DNA of 64,000 nt from Candidatus Zhuqueibacterota bacterium (GTDB taxonomy: Bacteria > Zhuqueibacterota > Zhuqueibacteria > JANLFK01 > Oleimicrobiaceae). Of this stretch, positions 1,971 through 27,536 are shown in pieces. The stretch spans positions 588,116 to 652,115 of the forward strand of contig JANLFK010000001.1 of assembly GCA_024655945.1 (NCBI GenBank), read 5' to 3'. Each line of letters begins with the position of its first letter. Within the stretch, counting starts at the first letter, position 1. The position numbers and the translations under genes were made by a program. The notes below the pieces were generated by a model. It saw nothing but the letters and a program-made list of their open reading frames with translations, ran no database searches and was not told the origin of the DNA.

Positions 1971-2294
1971 TTTTCTCCTTGCACCTCCGCGCTCGCATTC
2001 GTCCCTCTCGCCGCTCTTGCGGCTCCACTTGCGACGCCCTAAATATACGTCCAGGTAGCTGCTGTGCGGAAGGGCCCTCCAAAGTCGGGAGAACCCCTGC
2101 CAAGAACAGCAAGCCGGTTCCCGGGAAGATTCTCCCGAAATGAAAACCCACGTACTGGCCTCTACGCTCTCTTTGTGTGCCCTGCCCGCCGGGACTCCCG
2201 TGCGCCGGGGAGGTGCCTATGCCCGCACAACTTTTCCCTTGCATTTCTCTGCGAAAGCTGTAACTTAGTCACCCAGGAGGTGCACGAGGAGAGT

Positions 2295-5061: not shown

Positions 5062-5157
5062 GGGAATGGATGGGTCCCTGGTGGGCCCCGCGGGCTTCAA
5101 ACCCGTTGTTCCGTGCTGAACAGTGCGGAAGGTGGGTTCGATTCCCACACATTCCCG
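5062..5157 (+). tRNA. selC: tRNA-Sec (selenocysteine tRNA), anticodon UCA
   Basis: 96 nt; 8-bp acceptor stem GGGAATGG/ACATTCCC (one G-A mismatch), 6-bp D stem GGGTCC/GGGCCC, anticodon loop CTTCAAA with UCA at 5097-5099, long variable arm 5109-5130, T arm GTGGG-TTCGATT-CCCAC, discriminator G; directly downstream of selB. Confidence 0.8.
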
Positions 5158-5166
5158 CAACAGGTC

Positions 5167-10587: not shown

Positions 10588-11374
10588 GGGGCTGGTAGGC
10601 TTTCCCCATTCGCAAACTGCCGGGTGCCTCGCCGCCGATAACGGCTGACGAGCCTTGTGGCCGTTGTGAGGACCCTCAGTGGCCAAGAAGAACCACAGAT
10701 TGGTACAGATTCCCAAGGATGCGAGCCAACCCCCACTCATGAAGCCCTGAACTGTCGCCACCAGCGGTCCGTCAACCTCCAAGGATTCTAACCGCTGGTC
10801 AGCTCTGACGTTGTCATCGGCGCCTCTCACCGGAGTTCATACAACCACAGCTTGAGGCGGATCTCCACGGAGTGAGCTGAGACAAGATCGCGCAGGCGGC
10901 TGAGCCGTTCGGTCTGCCAATGACCGCGGACTTGGCCGCCGATGTCCGTTGCCGACATTTTGCTGGGCCATATCGCCACGTGCCCGCCGCTCATGACGGA
11001 CCACAGATAGGCACCGATGTTCACTGCCAGAAGACCAGACCGGCAAGAGTCGCTGATTTGCCGCCTCCGGTCGGCGGAGCCCGAGGCCTTGCCGTCGCAA
11101 GGACATGCCGATGAGCTTTCATCCGCTGTCAGCGGTCCAGGAGAACCCGCATTGTGGGAGACGTGGCCACGAGTCTTCGCCGAGCGGGAGAATGGGAGAT
11201 GGTCGCCTATGGCGATACCAGCCCTGGCCCTCGGGCGACGGCCCGCAAGTCCTACCTCCCGTATCAGTGCCCATCAATGATTCATGGTGAAAACCGGGTT
11301 GGCGCCGATCTTGACACGGAGTAATTGACCAAACCATCAGCATCTGGCCTCTCTCCCGCACGCGATTTTTTTTC

Positions 11375-11403
11375 TTGACTTTTCTTTGGAAATTGCTTAT
11401 TAC
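11375..11403 (+). promoter_or_regulatory. sigma-70-like promoter (TTGACT-17-TATTAC) with upstream T-run
   Basis: TTGACT at 11375-11380, 17-nt spacer, TATTAC at 11398-11403; followed by GGAGGAGGA and a GTG at 11432. Confidence 0.35.
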
Positions 11404-11671
11404 GTCAGCACGATAAGGGGAGGAGGACATTGTGAACAATCGGCGCGGGGGAAAACCGCAAAGGTTGGCCGTAGCGTGTGGGAAGCGAACCTGGGAAGTG
11501 GGGGCTGCGAAGATCGGGCCCCTCCGCCTGCTGCGGAGAGGCAATGTACCCCGCGCGTACTTGCTCCGCACTGAGCGGGTGCCGGACACTGCACGGCGCG
11601 CAGAGGTTGCATGTTTCACCGCCAAAGAAAACGACTCGTCGCCTCTTAGGCTCTAACAGGCGCCCTACTCC

Positions 11672-14125
11672 TTGCCGTATTTGTCCTGCTCTGGCCCTCT
11701 TCCGAGGCTCTGCAGGACCCCAAGCTCTTGCCCTACCGACTTGTTCCCGTCAAAGAACTGCCCCCCTCTCCTCACGACCCACGATGCTAACCACGACGGC
11801 TACGATGAGTGCTACCATGCGCGGAGTCTTGGTCCTGCCAAAGCGCTCACTGGGACCATCGAGCAGCGGGACCACAGGGGGAATAGCACAGAGCAGTACA
11901 ACTTCCCTGGTGCAGAGACAGCTTCTCTCAGCTTTGCGGACTTGGTGGGCGACGGCCGCGAGGAACTGGTTGTCTGGCTCCTCCGCAATGACACTGCCTT
12001 TGTGGATATCCGCACCACGGACGACCAGCGGGTGACCCGCTTCCCTGCGCTCACCACCGACGAGCATACCAACCTCGACAACATCGGACGCTGGGATTGC
12101 CCAGGGTTCCTAATCGACAGCCGCGACTTGGACGGGGACGGGCAGAATGACCTGATCTTTCTGGTGCGCACAGGACATGCCGGGTCTCCCCGCGGTCTTT
12201 TCGCTTTCCGGTTTCCAGACGGCGCCATCTTATGGCAGGAGAAGATGGTGGCGTTTCCCACCGCGTCACTCGCCACCGACTTGGAAGGGGACGGGCTGCC
12301 GGAGTATGTACTCGGCACGGACACCCCACAGAATCTAAGGGCGCCAATCAACGGCACGAAGGACGACGTGGCTTACCTAATGGTCTTTGACCATGACGGC
12401 AAAAGACTTTTTAGGAAAGAGCTCGCCGCCAAGGGTACGTTTGTCCGCACCTACCAGTTCCGCGAGCACGCCCAGGGAACGGCGCGGTGCGCAGTCTTGT
12501 GTAACCGGGTCCAGAAGGAAGCACAGGTCCTGCCCAGCGACCTCTTCGAGATGGAATTCCCGCAGCTGGCCCTGCGCCGTCTCTTGCCGCCGCCTCCCTT
12601 CTCCCGCTCGGCCTTCACCATTGCCGACCTCGATGAAGATGGTATCTCCGAAGCCTTGCTCGTTGCCGAAGACTCGAGGGCTCAACTTTACCGCTATAGT
12701 GTCGACAAACGGGTTTTTGTGCCCCAACTGGAACGCAAGGTGCCCGTTCAGGGCATAGATGGTGCAGCCGGCGTCGCGTGCTACGACCTCAACCTGGACG
12801 GTACTAAGGAAGTAGTGTGCGAGACGCTCAGAGGGTTTGTCGTGCTCGACGCGCGGCTAAGGCTCCTCGGAGCAGATGCTGGCCTGGGAGGCCCCTTACT
12901 CATAAGACGGGGGAAAGAGAAGCCCCTGCTGGTAGCCAATCGTAGAGACCGAGAGGGCTCCCTCCTTCTGCGGTTCGAACCAACCCCGCATCTCTGGTGG
13001 AACTGTGCGGCCATCGTGGCGCCCCCATTGGCCGTAGTGGTGGTGCTTGGTCTGCTCACCTGGCACTTCTTGCTTTCGCTCTCCGCCTACTGCAGCCTCC
13101 CTGTGCTTAGCCCTACAGCGAACTGGGTGCGGTTAGACCGCCACCTGCGCCCACGGGAGTGGAGCGGGGCGCTGGCCGAGCGGGTCAACCGGAGCACGAC
13201 CTCAATTTCCTTGGGCGACCTCCTGCCACCGAGCGCCGTGCAGTATGTGCAAGGTTGGCTGAGGGTACATGGTGCCCACAGTGCCGAGAGCGTTCAGGAG
13301 CTCGAACTGCCGGACCGAACGCACGGCCTCTTCATCTTCGAGTGGTACCCCCGGCCTGGGCTAACTCTCTCCGGTGGTGGCGTCCTTCTCTGGCGCCAGC
13401 TCCCCGTCTCCGCGCCGTTCCGCTCCGGGGAGTGGCTCAAACTGACCCGCGGCATGGTCCACGACCTGAACAATCCCCTTTCGGCGGCACTGACACTGCT
13501 GGGACGCCTGCGGCGGGAGTTGCAGCCCACAGTCCAAAATCAGGATCAATGCCAGGAGCACCTCGGAGAGATGGAGAACCAGGTCGTGCAAGCGCGCAAC
13601 ACGGCCCTTCGCTTACCCTCTTTGATGGACTTGGCATCGCACAAGCCACGCCCATGCGATGTGAACGCTCTGGTCGAAGAAGTTTGCAAGCAGTTCCGTG
13701 GCGAGGTGGGGCCGGAGGTACTCTTTCACCTCAACGCTGGCAAGGACCTCCCCCTGGTGCACGTGGCGCACGATGCCTTGCGCATGGCCCTGCGCAACGT
13801 CATCCAGAACGCGGTGGAAGCGGTGGGCAAACGTGGGAACATCTTCCTCACCACCTACCGTGAAAGCAGGCAGCGCCCGGAGAGCAGCCAGTGGGAAGAG
13901 TGGATTGTCATCGAGGTTCTCGACGACGGGCCGGGCATCCCGCCGGACCTTCTGGGCAGGCTGTTTGAGCCTGGTGTGACCACCAAGCCAGGAGGCTCAG
14001 GCGTCGGTCTCGCCATTACCAAGGAGATAATGCAGTCGCTGCAAGGCGACGTGCGCGTCGAGTGCCCAGGGGGGCACGGTACCTCGGTCACGTTGAGCAT
14101 TCCGGTGCGCCACCCTCCCGCCTAA
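11672..14125 (+). CDS. sensor histidine kinase with FG-GAP/VCBS-like beta-propeller sensor domain (N-terminus unresolved)
   Basis: Repeats FADLVGDGREEL, DLDGDGQNDL, DLEGDGLPEY, DLDEDGISE, DLNLDGTKE; hydrophobic segment AAIVAPPLAVVVVLGLLTWHFLL; H-box MVHDLNNPLSA; HATPase_c G-boxes DDGPGIP and GGSGVGL. The track start is the first TTG after a stop; a signal-like segment lies upstream in another frame. Confidence 0.8.
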   Translation: MPYLSCSGPLPRLCRTPSSCPTDLFPSKNCPPLLTTHDANHDGYDECYHARSLGPAKALTGTIEQRDHRGNSTEQYNFPGAETASLSFADLVGDGREELVVWLLRNDTAFVDIRTTDDQRVTRFPALTTDEHTNLDNIGRWDCPGFLIDSRDLDGDGQNDLIFLVRTGHAGSPRGLFAFRFPDGAILWQEKMVAFPTASLATDLEGDGLPEYVLGTDTPQNLRAPINGTKDDVAYLMVFDHDGKRLFRKELAAKGTFVRTYQFREHAQGTARCAVLCNRVQKEAQVLPSDLFEMEFPQLALRRLLPPPPFSRSAFTIADLDEDGISEALLVAEDSRAQLYRYSVDKRVFVPQLERKVPVQGIDGAAGVACYDLNLDGTKEVVCETLRGFVVLDARLRLLGADAGLGGPLLIRRGKEKPLLVANRRDREGSLLLRFEPTPHLWWNCAAIVAPPLAVVVVLGLLTWHFLLSLSAYCSLPVLSPTANWVRLDRHLRPREWSGALAERVNRSTTSISLGDLLPPSAVQYVQGWLRVHGAHSAESVQELELPDRTHGLFIFEWYPRPGLTLSGGGVLLWRQLPVSAPFRSGEWLKLTRGMVHDLNNPLSAALTLLGRLRRELQPTVQNQDQCQEHLGEMENQVVQARNTALRLPSLMDLASHKPRPCDVNALVEEVCKQFRGEVGPEVLFHLNAGKDLPLVHVAHDALRMALRNVIQNAVEAVGKRGNIFLTTYRESRQRPESSQWEEWIVIEVLDDGPGIPPDLLGRLFEPGVTTKPGGSGVGLAITKEIMQSLQGDVRVECPGGHGTSVTLSIPVRHPPA

Positions 14126-14189
14126 GGCACGCTGGCACGCCGGTTGCACTCGCTCCCAGGCCATCTCACAAAAATCGTGGCAGGAGCTC

Positions 14190-15563
14190 ATGGAAGAACC
14201 TATTCGTGTCCTGATCGCTGACGACAACCGCAACCTCCGCCTGCAGCTGCGCGATATCGCCGAGGAAGCGGGTTACCAGGTGGAAGAGGCAGCTGATGGC
14301 GAGGAGGCGATCGGCCGGCTGTCCGATGCCGATTACGACCTGCTGCTCCTCGACCTGCAGATGCCCAAGCTCTCCGGCCTGCAGGTGCTGGAACGTGCCA
14401 AAGGCCTGGCGCACCCCCCGGAAGTGTTGATCGTTACCGACTATGCCACCGTTGACGCTGCCGTAGAGGCGACGCGCTTAGGGGCATTCGACTTTATCGA
14501 GCGTGACGCCGTGGAACGGCGCCTGCCGGTGAGCATGCGCAATGCGCTGCAAAAGCGGCAGATAGAACCTGAGAACCAGCAGCTGCGCAGCCTTCGCGAG
14601 CCTGGCGAACTGCTGGGCACCAGCGCGGTGATGGCTGCCCTGCGCCAGCGCATTGCCCAGGTGGCCAAAAGCGACAGCACCGTGCTCATTCTCGGCGAGA
14701 GCGGCTCAGGCAAGGAGCTGGTGGCACGGGCCCTCCATCAACAGAGCCCGCGCGCCGCCAAGCCGTTTGTCGTGGTCAACTGCAGCGCCCTGAGCGACAC
14801 GCTGTTGGAGAGCGAGCTCTTCGGGCACGTGAAGGGGGCCTTCACGGGTGCCCACTCCGCCAAGAGGGGCATGTTCGAATGTGCCGATTCCGGCACTATC
14901 TTCCTCGATGAGATCGGCGACATGAGTCCGGCTGCCCAGGCAAAGGTCTTGCATGTGTTGGAGTACGGTGACGTGCACAAGGTGGGCTCCTTAGAGAGCA
15001 TTCGCGTGAACGTGCGCGTGCTGGCTGCAACTAATCGCCAGTTGGAACAGGATGTTGCCGAGGGTCGTTTTCGGCCCGACCTCTACCATAGGCTGAAGGT
15101 AGTCGTCTTGCACGTCCCGCCCTTGCGCGAGCACCCGGAGGATATCCCCCTCCTGGCCAACCACTTCTTGCGCACCTTTTGTGAGTTGAACCGCCGCCCA
15201 CCGGCGACTCTCGCCCCTGAAGCGTTGCAACTTCTCTTCCGCTACCATTGGCCCAACAATATCCGCGAGTTGCGCAACCTCATGGAGAGGGTGTGGATCC
15301 TGTGCAGCTCTGAGGTGGTAAACGCCTGGGAGTTAGAGCAGGTGTGGGAAAAAGAAGAGGGGCAGGTACCGGAGTCCCTGTTCCGTGGTCAGATTGTGCC
15401 GCTTGCGGAGGCCTGGCGCCAGTTTGAGCGGGCGTACATCAGGCGGGCCTTGGTCGCCTGCCGGGGCAACGTCAGCGAAACCGCGCGGCTTCTGCAGATC
15501 AACAGGAGTCATTTGCATGTGAAGATGAGGGAGTTGGGGGTGGGGGGCGGGCCAGCGTCGTAA
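14190..15563 (+). CDS. sigma-54-dependent response regulator (NtrC/Fis family: REC + AAA+ + HTH)
   Basis: REC domain LIADDN...LLLLDLQMP; Walker A GESGSGKE; GAFTGA-type sigma-54 interaction motif (GAFTGA); C-terminal HTH; ATG at 14190 with AGGAG upstream. Confidence 0.9.
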   Translation: MEEPIRVLIADDNRNLRLQLRDIAEEAGYQVEEAADGEEAIGRLSDADYDLLLLDLQMPKLSGLQVLERAKGLAHPPEVLIVTDYATVDAAVEATRLGAFDFIERDAVERRLPVSMRNALQKRQIEPENQQLRSLREPGELLGTSAVMAALRQRIAQVAKSDSTVLILGESGSGKELVARALHQQSPRAAKPFVVVNCSALSDTLLESELFGHVKGAFTGAHSAKRGMFECADSGTIFLDEIGDMSPAAQAKVLHVLEYGDVHKVGSLESIRVNVRVLAATNRQLEQDVAEGRFRPDLYHRLKVVVLHVPPLREHPEDIPLLANHFLRTFCELNRRPPATLAPEALQLLFRYHWPNNIRELRNLMERVWILCSSEVVNAWELEQVWEKEEGQVPESLFRGQIVPLAEAWRQFERAYIRRALVACRGNVSETARLLQINRSHLHVKMRELGVGGGPAS

Positions 15564-16797
15564 ATCGGGGTTGGTTTTGCGCTCTGCCTGCCGCAAAAGG
15601 ACAGGAACGTGAGGAAGTCTGTTGGAAAAGCCCAACACAGTGTGGGAAGAATCCTACAGTAGCGTGACGAACTTGCAGTAAGGTGTGGAAAGAGCCCTTT
15701 GCCTCCTTCTCGACTTCGAGGCCAGGAGGAACCAACGAGAGGGCACGAAGATTGCGTTATGCGATTATCGAGCGGCCTCGATGACCACTTCATCCCTTGT
15801 GAGAAGAGGATCCCAGGATCAGCAAAGGGGAACACTCAACGCTGCAGGAGTCGGCGGCGTTAAGCCAGCGGGTTCTCTTTTGGAGCGGGTTGAAGTGCAT
15901 TATTGGAGGGTCGGCGCCTGATGTTACCCCGAACGGGAAAGCGCTACATTGGGCGTTAGAGTTCGTGAACACTGTGTTCATCATGAGAGAAAGAGCCGCT
16001 CGCTGGCTAAGGTACTACGGTTAGCGGTGAAGCCGAGCTATGAACACGGGCGGGCTTTCTTTCCTCGCCCGATCGGACTCCCCGGGAAGGGGAGTGTTGT
16101 TGGACTGATGACAGTAGGGTTGCTGAGGCCACGGACTTTAGACACCCGCGATTGAGAGTAGGAGTACAGGCAAAGATACCTAACTTCGCAGCATGTTAAC
16201 CCTTGTTGGTGTCCTCTGAGATTCGGGTGGTGTGAAACATGGGGAGAGACACAGGCCCCGAAGGGCATCGGTACCGTACGGGAGCGCCTGCGCGACTGAT
16301 CAGTGAGGTCTTCAGATTCCTTAAACAAGTTGGAAGGAGTAGGAGTGAGACTCACGGCCATGCAGGCGCCGAAGCAGGCATGAGGACGTAACCCGGTTAC
16401 GTCGAGAGTTCCTCCCGGCGCTGCTCACTGGGTGGAACGGGGTGGGAAGTCAAGCCATTTAGAGGCCTCGCGACGATGGATGGACGGGCAGGTACGGCTT
16501 GCAGGTAGGTAGGGACCCACCAATGTGGAAAGAGCAGGAATGGGTGGCAACTCTATGTGGCCCCCCTGCGAGAGAAGGATGCTGTAGCTTCTTCACAGGG
16601 GACCGAGCAGTCAAGTTTGTCTATCAGAACGGGGGACATCTTGTGAAGGCTCCACCTCACGGGTGGAGTATACCCCAAAAGCATGGTGGGCCGCTATCCG
16701 CTGGAGCGGTGGATTGAAGCCTTTCGATGTCCTTACCCTGGAGTGATCCAGATGAGAAACGAGCGAAAATAGAATTGTCAGTCTCCATAACGCACTT
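15564..16797. other. ORF-free, purine-skewed 1.2-kb segment: candidate structured noncoding RNA or heavily decayed gene
   Basis: No ORF above about 110 aa in any frame; plus strand rich in G and A; several GNRA-like loops and clean hairpins (e.g. CTCCCC-GGGAA-GGGGAG at 16078-16094); 12-nt exact repeat TGTGGAAAGAGC at 15684-15695 and 16524-16535; composition differs from flanking genes. Confidence 0.25.
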
Positions 16798-18749
16798 GTG
16801 CGAATTGAGAGTACGAGAAGCCCCCGACGTGCCAAACCTTCGGGCTTGGCCTGGGATGGAAGTTACTTGTGGTTGTGCGACATCAGCGAGAACACCGTGT
16901 GGAAGCTTAGCCGAACCGGCCAGGTGGCGGCCAGAATGTTTGTTCCCGGTACTTATCACACTGGTCTGGAATGGGACGGCCATTCTGCGTGGCTGGTGGA
17001 CGGCGAGGCTGAACTCATCTACGAACTGGACGGCTCTGGCAACACTCGGAACTTCTATCTGCCGCCGGGGACCTTTCCCAGGGATATTGCCTGGGACGGC
17101 AGTGATCTTTGGATTGCAGATGCTGACAACGACAGAATCTACAAGTTGAGAGGTCCCATCATGGGGCCTGAGCCGAGGGCTTCGTTCACGGTAACCCCAA
17201 CGTCCGGTTTCCTGGAGACCCTTTTCCTGGTTGACGCTTCCAGTTCACAAGACCAAGTTACTCCCCTCGCGGACCTCGAGGTTCGGTGGGATTGGGAAAA
17301 CGATGGGGCGTACGACACCGAATACTCCAAGGTCAAGACTGCAAACCATCAGTACGCCTCACCGGGAACCAAGACAATTAGGCTTGAGGTCAAGGATACG
17401 GACGGGTATACCGGCACGACAACAAGAAGCGTCTCAGTAAGCGCGAGGGCCCCTCAGGCTTTCAGCCTAGTTTCTCCGCGATCAGGTGATACCGTTAGAA
17501 CGTACCTGCCCTCATTCAAGTGGCGGACCGCGCGAGACGCTGACCCAGGAGATACGGTGCGCTATTTTGTTCAGTATTCGAAAAGCTCCTATTTCTCCAT
17601 CTTCGATACACTCGCAGCAGGCACCGACACCCCTGCTGCCGTACGTGATTCTTTGCAGCAATTACAGAGGTACTATTGGCGGGTGGAAGCGGTGGATCGC
17701 TGGGGAGCAAAGACCCTGAGCTCTCAAAGTTGGAATTTCCTGGTCGCAGACCTCACGCCCCCCTCTTTCACAATCGGTCTCCTGCAGAATCCCATAATCA
17801 CAGAGGATCTCGATCTGTACGCCATCCCCAACGAGACACTGGATCAGCGCGGGGTTCAGTGTACCGCCAACGGGATCCCTGTTCCTATGTCGGAGCTCGA
17901 CGCTGCGCGTCGAATCTATGTTGGTGATTACCAGCTCTCGGGGGAGCGGAAGACTGGTGGTCATCATGAGAGGCAAAGATGCGATATGGGGAAATGAAGG
18001 TGCCGACAGCCTGTCCATCTCGGTGCAGCTAGTCAAAACAGTACAGGGGGGGGACGATCGCTAGTCTCGATGGGGCCTTGCATGCACAGTTCCCCGCTGG
18101 TTGCCTTCCTTACGACGCTTACGTCTTGGTTCTACAAGCGAACCAGGAACCAGGACGGAGGGAAGGCCTCTGTAGAAGGACAATGGAAAGTGACACAGTC
18201 ATCGCCATTGGGACAAGCTACGGAATTGAGCCCGCAGGACTCCGGTTATCCGACTCTGTGCTGTTGGAGGCCAGTTACTCGGAGAGGGCCTTGGCAGACC
18301 TAGATGAGGAGAGACTAGAGCTTGCGATCAGAGAAAGTGACGGCTGGAGATCTCTCGGCGGTGTAGTGGACAAGAAGACTGACAGAGTGACCTTGCTGGT
18401 CGACCAGCTGGGAGAATACCGTCTGCAGTGGAATCAGAAACGTCGGACGTCAGGGAGTTTTCCTTCGCACTTGGTCCTTTTGCCAAACTACCCCAATCCG
18501 TTCAATCCGACCACTACCCTACATTATGGACTGCCTGAGCGATTTTCGGGCTGGGTGGAGCTGGGTATCTACGACGCCGCTGGGCGCGAAGTGTGTTGCC
18601 TGGTGGATGAGCCTCAGAACCCCGGGTATTATTCTGTCGTATGGGACGGGAGGGATAGCTCTGGTCGGCAGGTGCCAAGCGGAGTGTACTGTTGCCGTCT
18701 GCGGGCAAACAGGCTTTCCATTGCAAGAAAGATGATCTTCCTACGCTAA
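16798..18749 (+). pseudogene. T9SS-type surface protein (WDG beta-propeller blades + PKD domain + type-A C-terminal sorting domain), frame-disrupted and lacking an N-terminal signal
   Basis: Frame 1 16798-17997 (GLAWDGSYLWLCD, GLEWDGHSAWLVD, DIAWDGSDLWIAD; PKD-like WDWENDGAYD), switch to frame 2 near 17940-17960, then to frame 0 at the G8 run 18046-18053; frame 0 continues to the sorting domain LLPNYPNPFNPTTTLHY...GVYCCRL ending at 18749. Confidence 0.55.
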
Positions 18750-18778
18750 GTTGCTCAACACAAATGGAGGAATAGCCA

Positions 18779-19459
18779 ATGACAGCCTTCATGCTCAAAC
18801 AGTCGCCTGGACGTGCGGTGTTGATCTGCCTTGTCTGCGTCGTGGCCCTCGCTACCTGCAGCAAAGAGACACCCACGGCACCAAAGAAGGGTCCCGTTAC
18901 ATGGATTGCTGAGGGCTGGAGATACTTCGAGGCGAAGGACTTCGCCGAGGCAGTTAATTGCTTCAGCACTGCACTCAACATGAATCCAAGCGACAGCATC
19001 GCTGCAATCGCGCATTGCGGGTTGGGCTGGAGTCAGGCAAGGCAGCGCGCATACGAGGTAGCTCACAACAATTTCACTTTCTCGGTCCAGAAGGACTCCA
19101 CCACGCCCGGCCCATATGTTGCCGACTCTTACGCCGGCAGGGCTGCAACCTTCTTTCGAATGAACCTCTACAGTGAGGCAATTTCTGACGTGAAGAAGGC
19201 CCTGAGCAGTACCGGCACCTATGAATTCGTTCACGACCGGACAGTGAGATTCACTGACCTTCACTTCTTGATGGCCGAAGCCTACTACCACACTCGTCAG
19301 TACCAAATGGCACAGGAAAAAGTAGACTTCCTTCGTGCCTTGTTTGCTCTTCCTCCGATCAACTGGACTGTAGTCCCCTATATGGTTGATGGTTTGGGGT
19401 ATGGAACTTACCAGGAAGCTCTTCTCAAAGCGATCGAGGGACTTCGGAGCAGAGTGTAG
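18779..19459 (+). CDS. TPR-like repeat lipoprotein
   Basis: ATG at 18779 with GGAGGA upstream; signal peptide with lipobox-like LATCS; helical repeat content; lower GC than flanking genes; TAG stop. Confidence 0.7.
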   Translation: MTAFMLKQSPGRAVLICLVCVVALATCSKETPTAPKKGPVTWIAEGWRYFEAKDFAEAVNCFSTALNMNPSDSIAAIAHCGLGWSQARQRAYEVAHNNFTFSVQKDSTTPGPYVADSYAGRAATFFRMNLYSEAISDVKKALSSTGTYEFVHDRTVRFTDLHFLMAEAYYHTRQYQMAQEKVDFLRALFALPPINWTVVPYMVDGLGYGTYQEALLKAIEGLRSRV

Positions 19460-19843
19460 GTTGTCCTTCCGTAAGTCCAGAAGGGTAAACCCAAACAAGA
19501 CAAGGGGGGAAGGTGAAACGGGACTGGAGGACACAATCGCGGCGTCCGCGGTCACAGTGTGTCCGCGACAAACGGTTCCCCCGCACCTTTTCGATCAACC
19601 TTTGTCGAGCGTCTCGAGTGCGAGATTTGGTCGAGGGAACTCCGTCGGGAAAGGGACCACGTCTGATCGTGACTCAAAGGCCTTGGAATTGAGGCGAATC
19701 CGACCACGAACTAGGTCAACGATCGGAGATGGAGGAGCCCACAAGTGAGAGAACACCAAACTGCGCGTTGTCCGCGGGAATCGGTTTCCACGGTGGGCGC
19801 CCAGAGGACGAAGTCGTCACAACGTAACGTAAAGAGGCAAGCG

Positions 19844-21383
19844 ATGAGAGAACCCAGTGGTCCATTCCGTCTTTTGATCATTTTGCTGGTATTTGTTGGC
19901 ATTGGCGCCCACGCCGGAGAAATCCGCCCCGTGAGCCCGGCCACCGTCCTGGGGCAGGTGGGGGTCGAGTTCGACGTGTATGTGCGTGTGGATCAGGTAA
20001 GCAATCTCTTCGGGGTCAGTTTCGTTTTGACCTTGGACAACGGCTATCTGGAGGCGATTTCCGAAAACCCCGAGTCCTTCATGGGCAGTGACGTGGTATT
20101 TTTGGGCCAGCACAATAATGCCGCCGGCACAGTGGCCATCGGGATTTCCCGCAAAGCTGGGCAGGGAGGCGTCAGCGGCACAGGCAATGTCGCACGGGTG
20201 CGAGAGTTGTGCAAGGGGCCACGCAGGACAGAGTCCTCCGGTTCGGGCTCGCCTCCGTGGAAGCCATCGACCCCTTGGGCGCGTCGATTGTGCTCGCTCC
20301 AGGTGAAGCCACGACTACGCTGTCCAGGTTGGTCACGGTGTGGCCGGGCGATGCTGATGATAACGGCACTGTGAACATCTTCGACATTAACCCGATCGTT
20401 GCCAATCACTGGGGCCGGACGGGGCCGCAGCGGCCCAATGCCTCTGTAAACTGGACGGGCCAGGTATGCCCACCATGGACACCGCCTGACGCAACCTACC
20501 CGACACTAACGGCGACGGCCTGGTGAGCATTTTCGACATTAATGCCGTACCGGTCAACTTCGGCAAGACTCACCCCGGAACCGCCGGGGCCCCACTCCCG
20601 ACACCGGTGGAACCCCAGGTCGTTGCGCTTGGCAAGGAAAGCGGGGTCACCTCACCGCCCATCGCGGCAAAGGGCCCGCAGCAGGTAGACAAGAACCAGG
20701 AATTCTGGGTAGACATCGAGGTTGGAGCCTTAGGCAATCCCGTCACCAACCTCAAGGTGGTCTCTTTCGAACTGACCTACACGAACACTGCCATAGTTGA
20801 CTACCTCAGTTACGAGGTGGGACCTTTCTTGACGGGCGCGATAGCAACCGTGATTCCGGATGACCCCAACGGGAAGGTAAGCGCGTCGGTCTATCGAACC
20901 ACTGGCAGCAACTCCGGCTACGGGGTAGTCTTGCGGCTGAAGTTTCGCACAAGCGCACAGGCCGCAGCGGGGCAGACGGTAAGCTTTGCCTTCGCCCAGG
21001 TGCTAGCCAACAGGGAGGACGGTAGCGTTCAGCCCTTGTCGCCCATTGGTCAGGTGGTCACCATTCAACCTGGCAGCGGCATACGCGCTGACGACTTCAC
21101 GCCCACAGAGTTCGAGCTGGTGCAGAACTACCCCAACCCCTTCAATCCTGGGACGGTCATAGAGTACCGTCTCCCGCAGGCCAGCAGGGTGACGCTGCAA
21201 GTGTACAACTTGGCTGGAGTAAAGGTGGCCTCGCTGCGGGACGGGATGGAGAGTGCGGGTCGTCATTCGGTGGTCTGGGATGGCCGCGACGAAATGGGCA
21301 GGCCTGTTGCAGCGGGGGTATACATGTGCAGGCTGGTGGCCGGAACCTACGACAAGACCATCAGAATGCTGCTGCTCAGGTAG
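19844..21383 (+). pseudogene. cohesin-like / dockerin-like / cohesin-like protein with T9SS type-A sorting domain, carrying two frame disruptions
   Basis: ATG at 19844 (AAAGAGG upstream), signal MREPSGPFRLLIILLVFVGIGAHA; cohesin-like VSFVLTLDNGYLEAI; dockerin repeats GDADDNGTVNIFDINPIV (frame 1) and DTNGDGLVSIFDINAVPV (frame 0); second cohesin-like VVSFELTYTNTAIVDYL; C-terminus LVQNYPNPFNPGTVIEY...GVYMCRL. Reading requires frame 2 -> 1 -> 0. Confidence 0.55.
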
Positions 21384-21420: not shown

Positions 21421-21460
21421 CGAGCGCCCTGGGGCAAATGCCTCAGGGCGCTCTGCCTTG
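21421..21460. terminator. bidirectional hairpin between convergent genes
   Basis: GAGCGCCCTG...CAGGGCGCTC 10-bp stem (with extra inner pairs) followed by T-containing tails on both strands. Confidence 0.4.
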
Positions 21461-21682: not shown

Positions 21683-23850
21683 TCACCACCCCACCTCCGC
21701 CACCGCCCGCCAGTGCCGGCCGGGCATGGGGTAGCCGGCGGCCACCTGGTACTGCACGTCGAAGAGGTTGTCCATTCCTGCCCGGAGGTGCCAGGTCACG
21801 CCCCAGAAGGGCACGCGCACGCCCACATTGGCATCGGCCACCGTGTGCGCAGGAAGGCGCCGCGTGTTGGCTTCGTCCGTGTAGCGCGACCCCACATAGG
21901 AGGCAGTGACATGGCCGTAGAACGGGCGACCCTGAAAACCAGCCCGCAACGAGGCCATGTGTTCCGGCCGGTAGATGAGCCGCTTGCCCTGAAGACCAGG
22001 TATGCCACCAGTATCTACCGCCCGCAGATGGCTGTAGTTCGCCTCAAGGATGAGGCGCTGCGCAAACCCCTCCCACTTGAGCCGCAGCTCCTGCCCCGTA
22101 ATCTCCGCCCTGCTCACATTGGCAGGCGACCACTTGTAACTCAGCGGGTCCATCCCCCAGACGATGAGGTCGCGGGCCCAGCGTCGGTACAAGCTGAGCT
22201 CGCCGTGCACGCGTCCGGCAGCCGGCACCCTCACGCTCAGCCCACCATCAATTTCCGTGGTCCGTTCCGGCTTCAGGTTGGGATTGCCCACGGTAAAGGC
22301 GTCCTCCGGCCAGTAGAGGTCGTTGAATGTCGGTGCGCGGAAGGAGCCACCCACATTGCCGCGTATCGCTACGTGGCTGTGCCGCACCCTGCTCAAAATT
22401 ATCCCCACCTTCGGACTGGTGACGAAACCAACCCCCTCGTAGTGGTCGATGCGCGCCGTCGGCAGAAGGTTGGCCTGCCACTCGGGGCGACCGAGCAAGC
22501 CTTTCCAGGCGGCATCGGCCTGGGCAAAGGCGCCGAAAGACTCCCGCGCGTGGGTACCCAACGAGGTACCTCGCGAGCGCTCGTTCAGATAGCTGGCCCC
22601 CAGGGACAGCACCTTGTCCTGTGCCAAGGGCAGGTCACCCTGCAAAGAGGCACCGGCGCTGACGCCTTTGTTGTCGGCATTCGACGGCCAGAAGGGATTG
22701 GGGTCAACATAGCGGGTGGCGAGCTCGTGCCGGAACCCTGTCGCCTGTACGTGCACCTTGCCGCCGAGGCTCGTCTCCACACCCAGCTGCACGCGGCGGC
22801 TGTCGTCGGTCTGCTTTGCCTCGGGACTCGGAAAGGCCAAGGATCCAGGCGCACCCCGCTCGGCATGGGACCACTCGCCGGAAAGGGTGAGGCGTGTGAG
22901 TGGAGAAGACTGCCAGCTCACCTTGCCGAAGAGTTCATCCATGGCAAACGAATTGTTGATGCGCCTGCTCTCCCTTTCCCTGTCCGTGGCTGGGTCCTTG
23001 GTGCGGTAAATAAAGTCGCCGTCGCTGCGGGCGCGGCTTGCGGCCACCAGCAGGCCGACATCGCCCTGCTGGTGACTTGCGCCAAAGTGCGCCGAGCGGC
23101 TGCCCCAAGAGCCCATGCCCGTGGCAAGCGACAGCTGAGGCCTCACTCCTCCCCGCGGCGCGCGTGTGATGATGTTCACCACGCCGGCGGCGGCATCCGC
23201 CCCATAGAGCGAGGAGAGCCCGCTACGCACAAATTCAATGCGCTCCACCGCAGTGAGCGGCAGCAGGCCGAGATCGTACCCCCCGGCTAACGGCGAATTG
23301 AGGCGCGCGCCATCCCAGAGGATGAGCACCTGTTCCGCCGAGGAGCCGCGCACCGACAGCGACTTCATGGCCGCATCCGAGCCATAGCTTTTCACAAAGG
23401 CCCCGGCCACAGGCCGCAAGGCATCAGCCACGGTGCTGCCGTTGACCATCTCTATGTCCGCGGCGGAGACCACCTCCGCCGACACGGGCAACTCCCAGCT
23501 CAGCGATCTGCCACGCTTGCCGGTGACCATCACTTCCTCAAGTTCAATGATGGTCGGCACCAGGCGCACGGACACCTGTTGGGCGCCGCGATCCGCAACG
23601 CGGAGCGTGAGCAGCTGCGGCGCATAGCCCATGTAGGAAACGCGAAGCTGGTACGTTCCTGCCCGCAGCTTGGGAAGCACGAAACGGCCCATTTCGTCGG
23701 TGGCGGCGCCCTGCCCGCCTGGCATAACACTGACGTTGGCGCCGGCGAGCGGTTTGCCGGTGGTGTGGTCCACCACCAGGCCGGTCACTTGCGCAAGGGC
23801 ACTCGAACAAAGGACCGCCACACAGAGGAGCGTCAGGAAAAGCGTCTTTT
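21683..23850 (-). CDS. btuB: TonB-dependent receptor (CarboxypepD_reg-like + plug + beta-barrel), probably cobalamin receptor BtuB-like
   Basis: ATG at 23850 with GGGAGG upstream; signal MKTQKTLFLTLLCVAVLCSSALAQ; plug motifs, C-terminal aromatic AVAEVGW; lies downstream of a cobalamin riboswitch. The btuB assignment is by context. Confidence 0.8.
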
Positions 23851-24421
23851 GCGTCTTCATCTTCGCCTCCCGTGGAACCCGGTTCACTGCTGTCTCTCTC
23901 CTACCTAACACTCCGATGGCCGCCGGCACCAGCAGCGCAAAGATTGCGGTGTTGACGGCGGCGTGGGTCAGGTAGAACACCGCCCCATAGGCGTAGGCTC
24001 CGAGCAAAGCCGGGAGGGTGAGCCGGGTCATCACGAGAAAGCCCACCGTGGTGAGAAAGTCGAAGGTCACCGTGAGGATGAAGCCGCTGGCCGCTAAAAC
24101 CAGCACTTGTGGCCAGTGGATTTTGTGCCGCCGCGCCCTCCTGCCGATCAGCCCCCCCACAAACCCCGCCAGGCCCATCCCCAAGACCTGGCTGACCAGC
24201 AGAGTGACAGAGGAGATGCCGTAGGGGTTGATGGCCGCGTAGAGAAGCTCGCCGACCATGGCCGTGGCCAGTCCTCGCCCGGCACCAAGGAAGGCGCCGG
24301 CGACAAAGGCAGTGGCGGTCACCAGCTCCACGTTGGGCACGCTGCTGAGCAGGTAGCCCAAGGCGACCATCAACCCGGCGAACATGGCCATGCTGGCCAA
24401 AGAAACGGTGCCCGGTCTCAC
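23851..24421 (-). CDS. ECF-transporter S-component-like small membrane protein (possibly cobalamin-specific); 3' end undefined
   Basis: Hydrophobic multi-TM translation MAMFAGLMVALGYLL...LLVPAAIGVLGRR; GTG at 24421 with GAGGAGGAA upstream (alternative ATG 24391); no stop codon before the btuB start, same frame. Confidence 0.55.
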
Positions 24422-24478
24422 GACCTCATTCCTCCTCTGCCATGCGCGAGCACTCCACCACGCGGCGGGCGGCGCCAA

Positions 24479-24514
24479 CAAAAAAACCCTGGCCTCCTCA
24501 AACAGACCAGGGTT
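24479..24514 (-). terminator. intrinsic terminator / riboswitch expression-platform hairpin
   Basis: Minus strand AACCCTGG-14 nt loop-CCAGGGTT followed by TTTTTTT; sits between the riboswitch aptamer and the RBS. Confidence 0.5.
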
Positions 24515-24569
24515 CGCACGTCGCGCACGCTACGCACCGACACCTCACCCGCGGAGGCTCACACGGTGA

Positions 24570-24760
24570 TACCGACTCCGGCAGGTTTCCTGGCTCTCCC
24601 GACCCTGGTCGCCTTCCCATCCAAGCTGCGGACAGTGGCACCGTTGACCAGGGCACCGGCGCATCGACTCATGCGCCCGGGATCACAGTAGCGGGGCTGC
24701 GACGGACTTGCACCGTCTTCCCTTTTCCTCCCCGGCGGGGAGCACCGGAATCTACGCCCA
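24570..24760 (-). promoter_or_regulatory. cobalamin (AdoCbl) riboswitch
   Basis: Minus strand reads AAGGGAAGACGGTGCAAGTCCGTCGCAGCCCCGCTACTGTGA ... GCCACTG ... GGGAAGGC ... AGCCAGGAAACCTGCC, matching the conserved core and B12 box of the cobalamin riboswitch family. Confidence 0.8.
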
Positions 24761-24783
24761 TATCGCCAAAGAGCGACGGTGCA

Positions 24784-26460: not shown

Positions 26461-27536
26461 TCAGGGATGCTGCGCTAAGAACTCGGTCACTGCCGTGGCA
26501 AACTCATCTGGCGCATCGGCAAAGAGAAAGTGGCCGGCCTGCGGCATGGTGCGCGGCTCCGCATGAGGGAGCAGTTGCGCGTACGTGGCGGTGGCCGCCT
26601 CCGGCTAAATGTCCATCCCTCCGTGGAGAATGAGCGCCGGTGCGGTGACCCGCTGCAAAGCCGCGCGGTAGTCGTGCTTCTTGCCCATGCTGAGATACTT
26701 CGCCTGCACCATCCAACCGCCGTTGCCGTGGAAGCGAAGCGTGCTGGGCACCGGCATGCCCTTCGCCTTTGCGGCAGCAAGGTAGAACCTGGTGAAACGG
26801 GAGTTCAGGCCGATCATCTCCCCCTCACTGCGCGAGAAGAGGTGCTTGAAATCGAGATACTCCTTGAGGAAAGTAGCATAGTCGCTCTTCAGCTCTGCTG
26901 GCAGGAGCGCGCCCACCTCGTCCAGGAGGTTGCCCTCGCCGGGAAACACGAGGAGCTGCGCCGGTGCAATCAACACCAGGGCACGCACATGTTCGGGAAA
27001 CTCCGCCGCGTACAGGGTGGCGAGAAAGGCGCCGATGGAGTGTCCGACCAGGATCAACCTATCCACGCCCAGGATGCGACGGATGCGTTCGACGTCAGCC
27101 ACCTGCGCACCTATGCCGAGGGCCCTATCGAGGTTGAGCATGTTGCGATAGAGGCTCTTGTCGGATAGCCGATCCACTGGCCGCGTTGAGTTGCCGCAGC
27201 CGCGCTGGTGGTAATAGATAACGCGATACTGCGCCGCCAGCTGATGCAGACCAGGTGGTGGGGGAGGTAGGGATAGCCAGGGCCACCGTGCAACACCAGA
27301 ACCTGCGAGCCAGACCCTTCTTCGAAGAAGAAGAGCTTCACATTCGGCTCAACCAGCCAGAGGTTTGCGCCTGCCGTTTGCGGCGGCGGAGCCAGTGGCG
27401 CCCGCAGGTTCTTTGCCTGCCGCACCATTCCTGGTCGGTACAAAGGCTTTCCGGCGGAAACGACAAAGAGCACCCCAGCAACCACCACTACCACAAGCAC
27501 CCCCGCCAGCAGCACCAGCATTACTCTCTTGGCCAC
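26461..27536 (-). pseudogene. membrane-anchored alpha/beta hydrolase (proline iminopeptidase-like) with one frameshift and one in-frame TAG
   Basis: N-terminal part VLVLHGGPG (track ORF 27111..27536); body LAAQYRVIYYHQRGCGNS...LVGHSIGAFLA...ILHGGMDI in another frame (switch at a C5 run near 27260-27264); TAG at 26607..26605; conserved C-terminus PEAATATYAQLLPHAEPRTMPQAGHFLFADAPDEFATAVTEFLAQHP continues in frame to TGA at 26461. Confidence 0.6.

What the first reader, a model, noticed from the sequence alone, without database searches (positions are those of the whole stretch)
15564..21383. Lower-GC island carrying T9SS-cargo genes with frame disruptions
From about 15.6 to 21.4 kb the composition shifts (visibly more A/T and purine skew; TAG stops used) relative to the flanking high-GC genes. 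The island holds the ORF-free segment, a beta-propeller/PKD/CTD surface protein split over three frames and lacking a signal peptide, a TPR lipoprotein, and a cohesin-dockerin-cohesin CTD protein split over three frames. This pattern fits horizontally acquired or fast-evolving surface-protein DNA undergoing decay, or a locally error-prone assembly.
Basis: partly seen in the sequence, partly recalled or inferred. Interest (0 to 1): 0.55.

Follow-up and report, generated by a model that had tools for sequence, protein, structure and literature searches.

The report
Decaying surface-protein islet in KSB1 genome
This is a roughly 6-kb stretch of foreign-looking DNA in an uncultured KSB1 (Zhuqueibacterota) bacterium that two related genomes lack; it carries two broken genes for secreted surface proteins and one intact lipoprotein gene, so it is an ordinary decaying accessory gene cluster, not a new kind of system.

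Summary
GC falls to 0.54-0.56 over 15.5-20 kb, against 0.62-0.66 in the flanks. The tetranucleotide signature there is the strongest outlier in the window (+3 to +3.8 SD). GC3 of the propeller/PKD gene and the TPR gene is 0.62-0.63, against 0.78±0.03 elsewhere.

Two related KSB1 contigs join the sigma-54 response-regulator gene directly to the TonB receptor gene through a 363-nt spacer. The 6.1-kb interval is therefore a lineage-specific islet.

Homologue alignments confirm both split genes:
- The propeller/PKD/CTD gene lacks about 330 N-terminal codons and has two +1 shifts, at a G5 and a G8 run.
- The cohesin/dockerin-like/cohesin-like/CTD gene has two -1 shifts.

The same gene fragments occur in two other deposited assemblies, one of which differs by a SNP. 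The shifts are about 30 times denser here than in the rest of the window. Real pseudogenisation is therefore more likely than assembly error, but reads are needed to settle it.

The 1.2-kb ORF-free segment is truly non-coding. It shows no 3-base periodicity, no remnant of the missing N-terminus, no Rfam hit and no excess RNA structure. Its left edge carries a tandem enhancer plus sigma-54 promoter that is conserved in the closest relative.

No mobility genes or flanking repeats were found. Ordinary; low interest.

The parts
14190..15563 (+). Left flank: NtrC-type sigma-54-dependent response regulator (receiver + AAA+ + HTH_8). Intact.
   Evidence: Pfam Sigma54_activat 226 bits, Response_reg, HTH_8. 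Orthologues at 92%, 81% and 80% identity in L165, L166 and L167.
15620..15658 (+). Tandem inverted-repeat sites, a likely enhancer (UAS) for the adjacent regulator: TGTTGG-N6-CCAACA (perfect) and TGTGGG-N6-CCTACA, 21 bp apart.
   Evidence: The same two sites occur in L165 at 10332-10370, and this is the only conserved block in an otherwise unalignable intergenic region. Binding by the regulator is inferred.
15741..15756 (+). Sigma-54 promoter-like element GGGCACGAAGATTGCG (-24 GG / -12 GC core GGCACG-N4-TTGC).
   Evidence: The core occurs only twice in the 64 kb on either strand, at 14134 and 15742. It lies exactly 122 nt downstream of the first repeat, the same spacing as in L165 (10332 to 10454).
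15757..16755 (.). About 1 kb of non-coding, G-rich DNA of unknown origin. It is not a remnant of the missing N-terminus of gene 1.
   Evidence: No periodicity. At least 9 stops in every frame. No Pfam hit for its ORFs. Frameshift-tolerant protein-to-DNA alignment scores 44/41 against shuffled 49.6 ± 6.5, with a positive control of 459. No Rfam hit at E ≤ 10. Fold z = -1.6 on both strands and nothing in local windows. No similarity in the window, in 167 loci, or in plasmids or phages.
16756..18749 (+). Gene 1: pseudogene of a T9SS-type cargo (beta-propeller blades, PKD, Ig-like domains, FlgD_ig-type C-terminal domain). It is 5'-truncated and has two +1 frame shifts.
   Evidence: tblastn of P0001, P0002 and P0004 across three frames. 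PKD_4 and FlgD_ig hits. Homologues are 768-1002 aa.
17940..17944 (+). Frameshift site 1 of gene 1 (G5 run; frame 1 to frame 2).
18046..18053 (+). Frameshift site 2 of gene 1 (G8 run, the longest G/C homopolymer in the window; frame 2 to frame 0).
18779..19459 (+). Intact TPR protein, probably a lipoprotein, and the conserved partner of the propeller gene. GGAGG lies 8 nt upstream of the ATG.
   Evidence: TPR_2 52 bits. Orthologues lie directly downstream of the propeller gene in L083 (59% identity) and L084 (52%). GC3 0.63.
19844..21383 (+). Gene 3: signal peptide, cohesin, dockerin-like repeats, cohesin-like domain and T9SS type A sorting domain, interrupted by two -1 frame shifts near 20203 and 20499-20501.
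   Evidence: Colinear tblastn with P0122, P0123, P0126 and others over frames 2, 1 and 3. Cohesin 33.4 bits and FlgD_ig. TIGR04183 31.4 bits. Dockerin_1 18.9 bits, below threshold. Internal cohesin similarity.
21422..21453 (+). 15-bp GC-rich hairpin (GAGCGCCCTGGGGCA / TGCCTCAGGGCGCTC). Likely a terminator between gene 3 and the convergent receptor gene.
   Evidence: Inverted repeat I7, 93% complementary with a 2-nt loop. It was not called by the terminator scan, which needs a T run. The role is inferred.
21683..24481 (-). Right flank: TonB-dependent (cobalamin) receptor, convergent with the island genes. Homology with relatives resumes at 21685.
   Evidence: Pfam Plug, TonB barrel and CarboxypepD_reg. 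blastn of L166 and L167. Cobalamin riboswitch at 24563-24764.

Best explanation
The interval from about 15.55 to 21.68 kb is a lineage-specific accessory islet in a KSB1/Zhuqueibacterota genome; the closest named relative is 'Oleimicrobium dongyingense', order JACIZP01. It lies where the 3' ends of a sigma-54 response-regulator gene and a TonB receptor gene converge.

Its left 200 nt carry the probable cognate target of that regulator: two inverted-repeat sites, then a sigma-54 promoter 122 nt downstream. That promoter would read into the islet.

Downstream lie 1 kb of non-coding DNA and then surface-protein genes, at least two of which were acquired from a lower-GC relative. They are a T9SS-cargo gene (propeller/PKD/Ig/C-terminal sorting domain) with its partner TPR lipoprotein gene, and a cohesin/dockerin-like/cohesin-like cargo gene.

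The first cargo gene is dead. It has lost its signal peptide and about 330 N-terminal codons through a rearrangement, and it has slipped by +1 at a G5 and a G8 run. The third gene carries two single-base deletions. Only the TPR gene is intact. The locus is therefore an acquired surface-protein cassette in the course of decay.

Shown: the composition, absence from relatives, colinear three-frame homology, the truncation, recurrence of the fragments in other assemblies, and conservation of the enhancer/promoter module. Inferred: the direction of transfer, that the frame shifts are biological, and that the regulator acts on this promoter.
For: Empty site. In L166 and L167 (regulator 80-81% identical; synteny SelB, C2, PETase-like, kinase, regulator) homology runs to window 15544 and resumes at 21685, with a 363-nt spacer instead of 6.1 kb.

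Composition. GC 0.54-0.56, tetranucleotide z up to +3.8, and GC3 0.62-0.63 against 0.784 ± 0.033.

Source. The best homologues of gene 1 (56% and 50% identity, 98% coverage) and of the TPR gene (59% and 52%) are adjacent on contigs of 44% and 46% GC, one from a KSB1 MAG.

Pseudogene status. Gene 1 shows three-frame colinearity with intact 768-1002-aa homologues and no trace of the N-terminus. Gene 3 shows three-frame colinearity with one-residue junctions.

Reproducibility. The 353-aa, 188-aa, 176-aa and 286-aa fragments are all deposited from two NCBI MAGs, on contigs of 761,593 and 760,040 bp, as well as from the 631,779-bp JGI contig. One MAG has V179I within the 353-aa fragment yet the same out-of-frame tail.

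Enrichment. There are 4 shifts in about 3.5 kb of island coding DNA, against 1 found in about 50 kb elsewhere. Only 1 of 99 G/C runs of 5 or more outside the island is linked to a shift, against 2 of 8 inside.

Real decay elsewhere in the genome. The hydrolase at 26.5-27.5 kb has a frameshift and also an in-frame TAG, while the closest relative has an intact 358-aa copy.

Regulatory module.
Against: No integrase, transposase, tRNA or flanking direct repeats were found, so the insertion mechanism is unknown. A deletion in the L166/L167 lineage cannot be formally excluded.

Gene 3 has near-native GC3 (0.73) and may have a different history from gene 1 and the TPR gene.

Two of the four shifts, and the one outside the island, sit in G/C runs, the classic site of consensus errors.

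Apart from the shifts, the 1,160 aligned codons contain no nonsense mutation. That fits either very recent inactivation or errors.

The three assemblies may derive from related samples and the same sequencing chemistry, so a systematic error could recur.

The closest relative's contig (L165) ends 711 nt after the regulator gene, so its own cargo region is unseen.
Confidence: 0.68

Rival explanations
1. The frame shifts are assembly or consensus errors (systematic indels, especially in G runs) in a region of lower coverage or strain heterogeneity. Gene 3, and gene 1 downstream of its truncation, would then be uninterrupted in the cell.
For: The shifts in gene 1 are at G5 and G8 runs, and the one outside the island is at a C5 run. 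The contigs are very long (632-762 kb), which would be compatible with a long-read assembly (my inference; the sequencing platform is unknown). After each shift the correct frame stays open and conserved, with 65% identity across the 35 codons between the two gene 1 shifts. Gene 3 keeps its start, ribosome-binding site, signal peptide and sorting domain.
Against: Outside the island, 98 of 99 G/C runs of 5 or more, including C7 and G7 runs, are in frame. The two gene 3 shifts are not in homopolymers. The 5' truncation of gene 1 is structural. The hydrolase pseudogene also has a TAG substitution, which is not an indel-type error.
Confidence: 0.22
2. The locus is ancestral to this clade and was deleted in the L166/L167 lineage. 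Its low GC would reflect relaxed selection and fast evolution of surface-protein genes, not horizontal transfer.
For: The enhancer plus sigma-54 promoter just downstream of the regulator gene is shared with L165 (92% regulator identity), so some target unit was present in their common ancestor. No mobility genes or repeats mark an insertion. Gene 3 has near-native GC3.
Against: The intact TPR gene, still under selection, also has GC3 of 0.63, 4.6 SD below the native mean. Drift large enough to lower GC3 by 0.15 would have destroyed the open frames. Nothing downstream of the promoter aligns between the window and L165. No homologue of gene 1 above 56% identity or of gene 3 above 47% was returned from 5.8 billion proteins, which include the L165 MAG. 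The closest homologues, in the same gene order, are on 44-46% GC contigs.
Confidence: 0.2
3. The sigma-54 promoter drives a long non-coding RNA encoded by the 1-kb ORF-free, G-rich segment. This would be analogous to regulator-adjacent sigma-54-dependent small RNAs such as CrcZ next to cbrB or the Qrr RNAs next to luxO (my own knowledge).
For: A conserved enhancer/promoter module lies directly downstream of the regulator gene. About 1 kb follows without coding signal. GC skew on the transcribed strand is +0.2.
Against: There is no sequence conservation downstream of the promoter in L165. There is no excess folding energy globally or locally and no Rfam match. No terminator-like site lies on the + strand before gene 1. 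L165 shows a plausible protein-gene start about 450 nt after its promoter.
Confidence: 0.07
4. The G8 tract is a contingency (phase-variation) tract that switches expression of the surface protein on and off by slipped-strand mispairing.
For: G8 is the longest G/C homopolymer in the 64 kb and lies inside a surface-protein gene.
Against: The gene lacks its start and signal peptide and has a second, independent shift 105 nt upstream, so no tract length restores a product. The tract state is the same in all three assemblies, with identical 188-aa and 353-aa fragments. The tract lies deep in the gene, not near its 5' end.
Confidence: 0.03

Closest known systems
Genomic islets or variable regions carrying accessory surface-protein genes (horizontally acquired, compositionally atypical DNA without mobility genes)
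   Same: Atypical GC, GC3 and tetranucleotide signature. Absent from syntenic relatives. Sits between convergent gene ends. Carries cell-surface proteins and pseudogenes.
   Different: No integrase, tRNA target or direct repeats. It is small (about 6 kb). Its left edge includes a promoter module that appears native to the neighbouring regulator.
T9SS type A C-terminal-domain cargo proteins of the FCB superphylum (TIGR04183 / PF18962, with PF13860 FlgD_ig-type tails, common in KSB1, Calditrichota and Cloacimonadota MAGs)
   Same: Both split genes end in the NYPNPFNP...-type sorting domain. Homologues are annotated as T9SS type A sorting-domain proteins. Other genes in the window carry the same tail (tblastn hits ending at 10584 and at 44194-43928).
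   Different: Gene 1 has no signal peptide and is frame-shifted, so it cannot be a functional cargo. Its tail scores just under the TIGR04183 cut-off. The T9SS machinery was not examined.
Cohesin-dockerin modular proteins (cellulosome-type modules; PF00963 / PF00404)
   Same: There is an N-terminal cohesin above threshold, two D-x-N-x-D-G-x-V-x-I-F-D-I-N repeats, and a second cohesin-like domain. Many homologues carry PF00404 and PF00963 together with a T9SS tail.
   Different: The dockerin is sub-threshold and has a spacer of about 40 residues between its repeats. No catalytic module is present. This is a non-cellulosomal context in an FCB-group bacterium. The gene is interrupted twice.
Bacterial enhancer-binding-protein (NtrC-family) dependent sigma-54 promoters located next to the regulator gene
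   Same: -24 GG / -12 GC core with canonical spacing. Two dyad sites 21 bp apart, about 100-120 nt upstream. Placed directly after the regulator gene. A second sigma-54 promoter precedes the regulator gene itself.
   Different: Activity is untested. The transcribed unit begins with 1 kb of non-coding DNA and pseudogenes, so the promoter's present output may be only the TPR gene or nothing useful.

Membership tests
Horizontally acquired genomic island | Base composition and codon usage differ from the host genome | tested here: met
   GC 0.54-0.56 vs 0.62-0.66. GC3 0.62-0.63 vs 0.784 ± 0.033 for gene 1 and the TPR gene; gene 3 is borderline at 0.73. Tetranucleotide z +3.0 to +3.8.
Horizontally acquired genomic island | Absent from the same site in related genomes | tested here: met
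   L166 and L167 have the regulator gene, a 363-nt spacer, then the TonB receptor gene. In the closest relative, L165, the contig ends too early to tell.
Horizontally acquired genomic island | Mobility signatures (integrase or transposase, tRNA target, flanking direct repeats) | tested here: not met
   No such genes among the ORFs or Pfam hits. The only tRNA is tRNA-Sec at 5062. No flanking repeat pair.
T9SS type A cargo | C-terminal sorting domain (TIGR04183 / PF18962) | tested here: met
   Gene 3: TIGR04183 31.4 bits vs cut-off 23, and FlgD_ig 41.5 vs 27. Gene 1: TIGR04183 20.5 bits (below 23) but FlgD_ig 37.3 vs 27; its homologue P0002 scores 34.5 bits.
T9SS type A cargo | N-terminal Sec signal peptide | tested here: inconclusive
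   Gene 3 begins MREPSGPFRLLIILLVFVGIGAHAGE, which is signal-like by inspection; no predictor was available. Gene 1 has none and lacks about 330 N-terminal residues.
T9SS type A cargo | T9SS machinery (PorU/PorV/SprA and others) encoded in the genome | not tested
   Only 64 kb were available. Other CTD-bearing genes in the window suggest the system is in use.
Cohesin-dockerin module proteins | Cohesin domain (PF00963) above threshold | tested here: met
   33.4 bits vs 24.1 for residues 31-127 of the reconstructed protein. The second domain rests only on pairwise similarity, E = 9e-4, with no Pfam hit.
Cohesin-dockerin module proteins | Dockerin type I (PF00404) above threshold | tested here: not met
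   18.9 bits vs 22.9 (E = 0.0017) on the reconstructed segment spanning the second shift. The two calcium-loop-like repeats are visible as direct repeat D4.
Pseudogene | Reading-frame disruption or truncation relative to intact homologues | tested here: met
   Gene 1 and gene 3. No N-terminal remnant was found. The biological reality of the indels could not be tested without reads; recurrence in other assemblies supports it.
bEBP-dependent sigma-54 promoter | -24 GG / -12 GC elements with canonical spacing, plus upstream dyad enhancer sites | tested here: met
   GGCACG-N4-TTGC at 15742, one of only two in the window. Dyads at 15620 and 15641. The same elements and the same 122-nt spacing occur in L165.
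bEBP-dependent sigma-54 promoter | Sigma-54- and activator-dependent transcription start | not testable with these tools
   Needs 5'-end mapping or a reporter assay.
Phase-variable contingency locus | Tract length varies between strains or reads and toggles an otherwise intact ORF | tested here: not met
   The fragments are the same in three assemblies. The gene is also truncated and has a second shift.

The most novel reading that the evidence does not exclude
The conserved enhancer plus sigma-54 promoter directly downstream of the response-regulator gene drives a roughly 1-kb non-coding RNA of a new family in KSB1/Zhuqueibacterota. This would be analogous in layout to CrcZ next to cbrB, and the surface-protein pseudogenes would merely lie downstream of it.
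Probability: 0.06. Interest if true: 0.5.

Novelty: new member of a known kind. Interest (0 to 1): 0.2.

Why it matters
It matters little beyond annotation. It documents, for an uncultured phylum (KSB1/Zhuqueibacterota), that T9SS-type surface-protein genes are gained by intra-phylum transfer and lost by truncation and slippage. It also shows that one such cassette sits behind a two-component, sigma-54-dependent promoter.

Practical consequences:
- The 353-aa, 188-aa, 176-aa and 286-aa proteins deposited for this MAG are fragments of two pseudogenes and should not be counted as separate families.
- The enhancer/promoter motif (TGTTGG-N6-CCAACA, twice, followed by GGCAC-N5-TTGC) gives a testable binding site for this regulator family.

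Tried and rejected
Non-coding RNA in the ORF-free segment:
- Rfam at gathering threshold over the whole window, and at E ≤ 10 over 15.3-21.7 kb, gave nothing in the segment.
- Global folds gave z = -1.6 on both strands.
- 150-nt sliding folds gave no window below z = -2.5.
- No + strand terminator was found.

Decayed coding sequence in the ORF-free segment:
- Pfam on all its ORFs of 65 aa or more gave nothing.
- tblastn of homologue N-termini gave nothing.
- My own frameshift-tolerant protein-to-DNA alignment scored at shuffle level.
- tblastx against all fetched loci gave nothing.
- Counting stops by type excluded recoding.

Mobile-element origin:
- blastn against plasmids and phages gave no match.
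- The repeat search found no flanking repeats.
- The other large non-coding stretch (10.6-11.65 kb) is unrelated.

Searches for relatives:
Both scans were effectively wasted.
- Relatives came instead from the cluster look-up and the third protein search.
- The look-up of P0121 found nothing on record, possibly only because of a difference at the start residue.

Other dead ends:
- Literature searches for the sample and assembly accessions returned nothing, so the sequencing platform is unknown.
- A first coding-frame scan was too noisy to use and was replaced.
- The upstream region of L083 has no sigma-54 promoter, so sigma-54 control is not a property of the propeller gene family.

Full report
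**Source and host.** The window is part of JGI metagenome 3300038743, contig Ga0417229_000003 (631,779 bp). Identical proteins are deposited from two NCBI MAGs labelled 'bacterium' and 'candidate division KSB1 bacterium', on contigs of 761,593 and 760,040 bp. The closest other genome is GCA_014359355.1, with a regulator 92% identical. The supplement of PMC11683472 lists it as MAG-107, 'Oleimicrobium dongyingense', KSB1/Zhuqueibacterota order JACIZP01, 61.3% GC, from an oil production facility. KSB1 belongs to the FCB superphylum (PMC11683472).

**The observation.** The compositional shift is real.
- In 1-kb windows, GC is 0.537-0.565 from 15.5 to 20 kb and about 0.60 from 20 to 21.5 kb, against 0.62-0.66 on both sides. 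GC skew reaches +0.21.
- The tetranucleotide distance of 4-kb windows from the window-wide profile is highest for windows starting at 15, 16 and 17 kb, with z = +3.1, +3.8 and +3.0.
- GC3 is 0.62 (gene 1), 0.63 (TPR gene) and 0.73 (gene 3), against 0.784 ± 0.033 for 30 other genes, whose minimum is 0.732. The core of the anomaly is therefore 15.5-19.8 kb, and gene 3 is borderline.
- The three island genes end in TAA, TAG and TAG. Of 31 other genes, 21 end in TGA.

**Comparison with relatives.** Three contigs carry orthologues of the regulator in the same upstream synteny (SelB, C2-domain protein, about 1,700-aa PETase-like CTD protein, FG-GAP histidine kinase, regulator).
- In L166 and L167 (80-81% protein identity, about 72% DNA identity), blastn homology runs to window 15544 and resumes at 21685, the 3' end of the convergent TonB receptor gene. 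Only 363 nt lie in between. The 6.1-kb interval is absent there.
- The spacers cannot be aligned, so exact junctions and any target duplication cannot be defined.
- In L165 (92% identity) the contig ends 711 nt after the regulator gene. That tail is ORF-free and does not align with the window, with one exception described next.

**The left edge is a regulatory module.** The core GGCACG-N4-TTGC of a sigma-54 promoter occurs only twice in the 64 kb on either strand. One copy is at 14134, between the kinase and regulator genes. The other is at 15742, 180 nt after the regulator's stop.
- A perfect dyad, TGTTGG-N6-CCAACA, lies 122 nt upstream of the second copy at 15620. A second, imperfect dyad follows 21 bp later.
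- L165 has the same two dyads (10332, 10353) and a GGCAC-N5-TTGC core (10454) at the identical 122-nt spacing.
- In the pairwise alignment these are the only conserved blocks.
- This is the standard layout of an enhancer-dependent sigma-54 promoter (established knowledge of NtrC-family activators). That the adjacent regulator binds it is an inference.
- L166 and L167 lack the module in their spacer.

**The ORF-free kilobase (15757-16755).**
- It has no 3-base periodicity: 0.3-1.0 against a window median of 4.8.
- It has at least 9 stops of mixed type in every frame.
- Its ORFs give no Pfam hit, and it has no Rfam hit.
- It shows no excess folding energy.
- It has no similarity to anything in the window, 167 fetched loci, plasmids or phages.
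- Its length roughly equals the missing N-terminus of gene 1 (333 codons). However, a frameshift-tolerant protein-to-DNA alignment of the N-termini of P0002 and of the L083 orthologue scores 44 and 41, against 49.6 ± 6.5 for shuffled proteins and 459 for a positive control.
- The rest of gene 1 is still 50-56% identical to these homologues, so gradual decay cannot explain the loss. A deletion or rearrangement removed the 5' part.
- The origin of this kilobase remains unexplained.

**Gene 1.** The reconstructed 649-aa product matches P0001 (768 aa, 56% identity, 98% coverage) and P0002 (1002 aa, KSB1, 50% identity).
- tblastn places P0001 residues 126-499, 499-535 and 530-768 in frames 1, 2 and 3.
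- The junctions coincide with a G5 run (17940-17944) and a G8 run (18046-18053). The G8 run is the longest G/C homopolymer in the window.
- Both shifts are +1.
- Domains found: PKD, an Ig-like domain and a FlgD_ig-type tail. TIGR04183 scores just below cut-off, at 20.5 against 23 bits.

**The TPR gene.** It is intact, has a good ribosome-binding site and has GC3 of 0.63. Orthologues (59% and 52% identity) lie directly downstream of the propeller gene in L083 and L084. These contigs are 44% and 46% GC. The pair is therefore a conserved two-gene unit whose closest known relatives live in lower-GC genomes, at least one of which is KSB1. This points to transfer within the phylum. The L083 orthologue has its own frameshift, and the L084 TPR gene is broken only by a run of N.

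**Gene 3.** It starts at ATG 19844 with a signal-peptide-like sequence.
- P0122 residues 192-300, 302-399 and 401-690 align in frames 2, 1 and 3 with one-residue junctions near 20203 and 20500. Both shifts are -1 and neither lies in a homopolymer.
- The first cohesin is above Pfam threshold. The dockerin is below it. The second cohesin-like domain rests on internal similarity. The type A sorting domain is above the NCBIfam cut-off.
- The best homologues are 46-47% identical, and many combine PF00963 and PF00404 with a T9SS tail.

**Real mutations or errors?**

For errors:
- Three of the five shifts in the window sit in G/C runs.
- The frames are otherwise clean.
- The contigs are long.

For real mutations:
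- The 353-, 188-, 176- and 286-aa fragments are all present in both NCBI MAGs. One MAG differs by V179I inside the 353-aa fragment but keeps the out-of-frame tail.
- Outside the island only 1 of 99 G/C runs of 5 or more is associated with a shift, against 2 of 8 inside. C7 and G7 runs elsewhere are in frame.
- A simple scan found one shift in about 50 kb of other coding DNA, against four in 3.5 kb here. By my own binomial estimate, if five shifts fell at random, at least four landing in 6.5% of the coding DNA has p of about 1e-4. The scan may have missed shifts elsewhere.
- The one outside case, the alpha/beta hydrolase at 26461-27521, also carries an in-frame TAG before a conserved catalytic C-terminus. 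The closest relative has an intact 358-aa copy. The genome therefore does contain genuine pseudogenes.
- I put about 0.7-0.75 on the island shifts being biological. Only read mapping can settle it.

**Overall reading.** This is a small accessory islet at a convergent-terminator site. It has no mobility genes, tRNA or flanking repeats. Behind a probably native sigma-54 target promoter, it holds an acquired T9SS-cargo/TPR pair and a cohesin-dockerin-type cargo, and both cargo genes are inactivated. This is a familiar pattern for fast-turnover surface-protein loci. The additions are the empty site in relatives, the regulatory module, the precise lesions and their reproducibility. Interest is low.

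Noticed in passing
window 14133-14148 (+): A perfect sigma-54 promoter, TGGCACGCCGGTTGCA, lies between the histidine-kinase stop and the response-regulator start. The same element sits at the same place in L165 (8839) and in L166 and L167 (9941). This suggests sigma-54-dependent, possibly auto-regulated, expression of the regulator.
   Followed up: partly
window 26461-27521 (-): An alpha/beta hydrolase (proline-iminopeptidase-like) is a pseudogene outside the island. It has a -1 shift at a C5 run near 27262 and an in-frame TAG at 26605-26607, and the conserved C-terminus (AGHFLF) continues to the TGA at 26461. A member of the same 90%-identity cluster in 'Oleimicrobium dongyingense' is intact at 358 aa (MBC7187328.1).
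   Followed up: yes
window 21683-24481 (-), riboswitch 24563-24764 (-): The 932-aa ORF downstream of a cobalamin riboswitch joins two parts in one frame. One is an ECF-transporter S-component-like membrane domain (PF12822, residues 28-186). The other is the signal peptide, CarboxypepD_reg, Plug and barrel of a TonB receptor. This is either a lost stop between two genes or an odd fusion. JGI and NCBI and 912 aa.
   Followed up: no
window 10588-11650: This is the second large non-coding stretch (about 1.06 kb, no periodicity, with a T8 run at 11366), upstream of the histidine-kinase gene. A comparably large gap exists in L165 (about 900 nt) and L167 (about 755 nt), but the sequences do not align.
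   Followed up: partly
window 5062-5158 (+), 2064-4208 (+): tRNA-Sec (Rfam 75 bits; ARAGORN anticodon TCA) lies close to a SelB gene, so the organism uses selenocysteine.
   Followed up: no
L083 about 2222; L084 3317-3326: The L083 orthologue of gene 1 is itself split by a single missing base (GGCAGC-GG-ATT, apparently the T of a TGG codon), giving 235-aa and 768-aa calls. The TPR gene of L084 is interrupted only by a scaffold gap of N.
   Followed up: partly
L165 10929-10961: About 450 nt after its sigma-54 promoter, the closest relative's contig shows a strong ribosome-binding site and start (AAAGGAGG-N7-ATG, MARISCILGV...) just before the contig ends. Its cargo gene is therefore different from anything in the window.
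   Followed up: no
window 11657-14125 (+): The histidine-kinase ORF can be at most about 822 codons (stop to stop), and JGI aa. The orthologues are 836-838 aa, so the N-terminus may be shortened or mis-called here.
   Followed up: no
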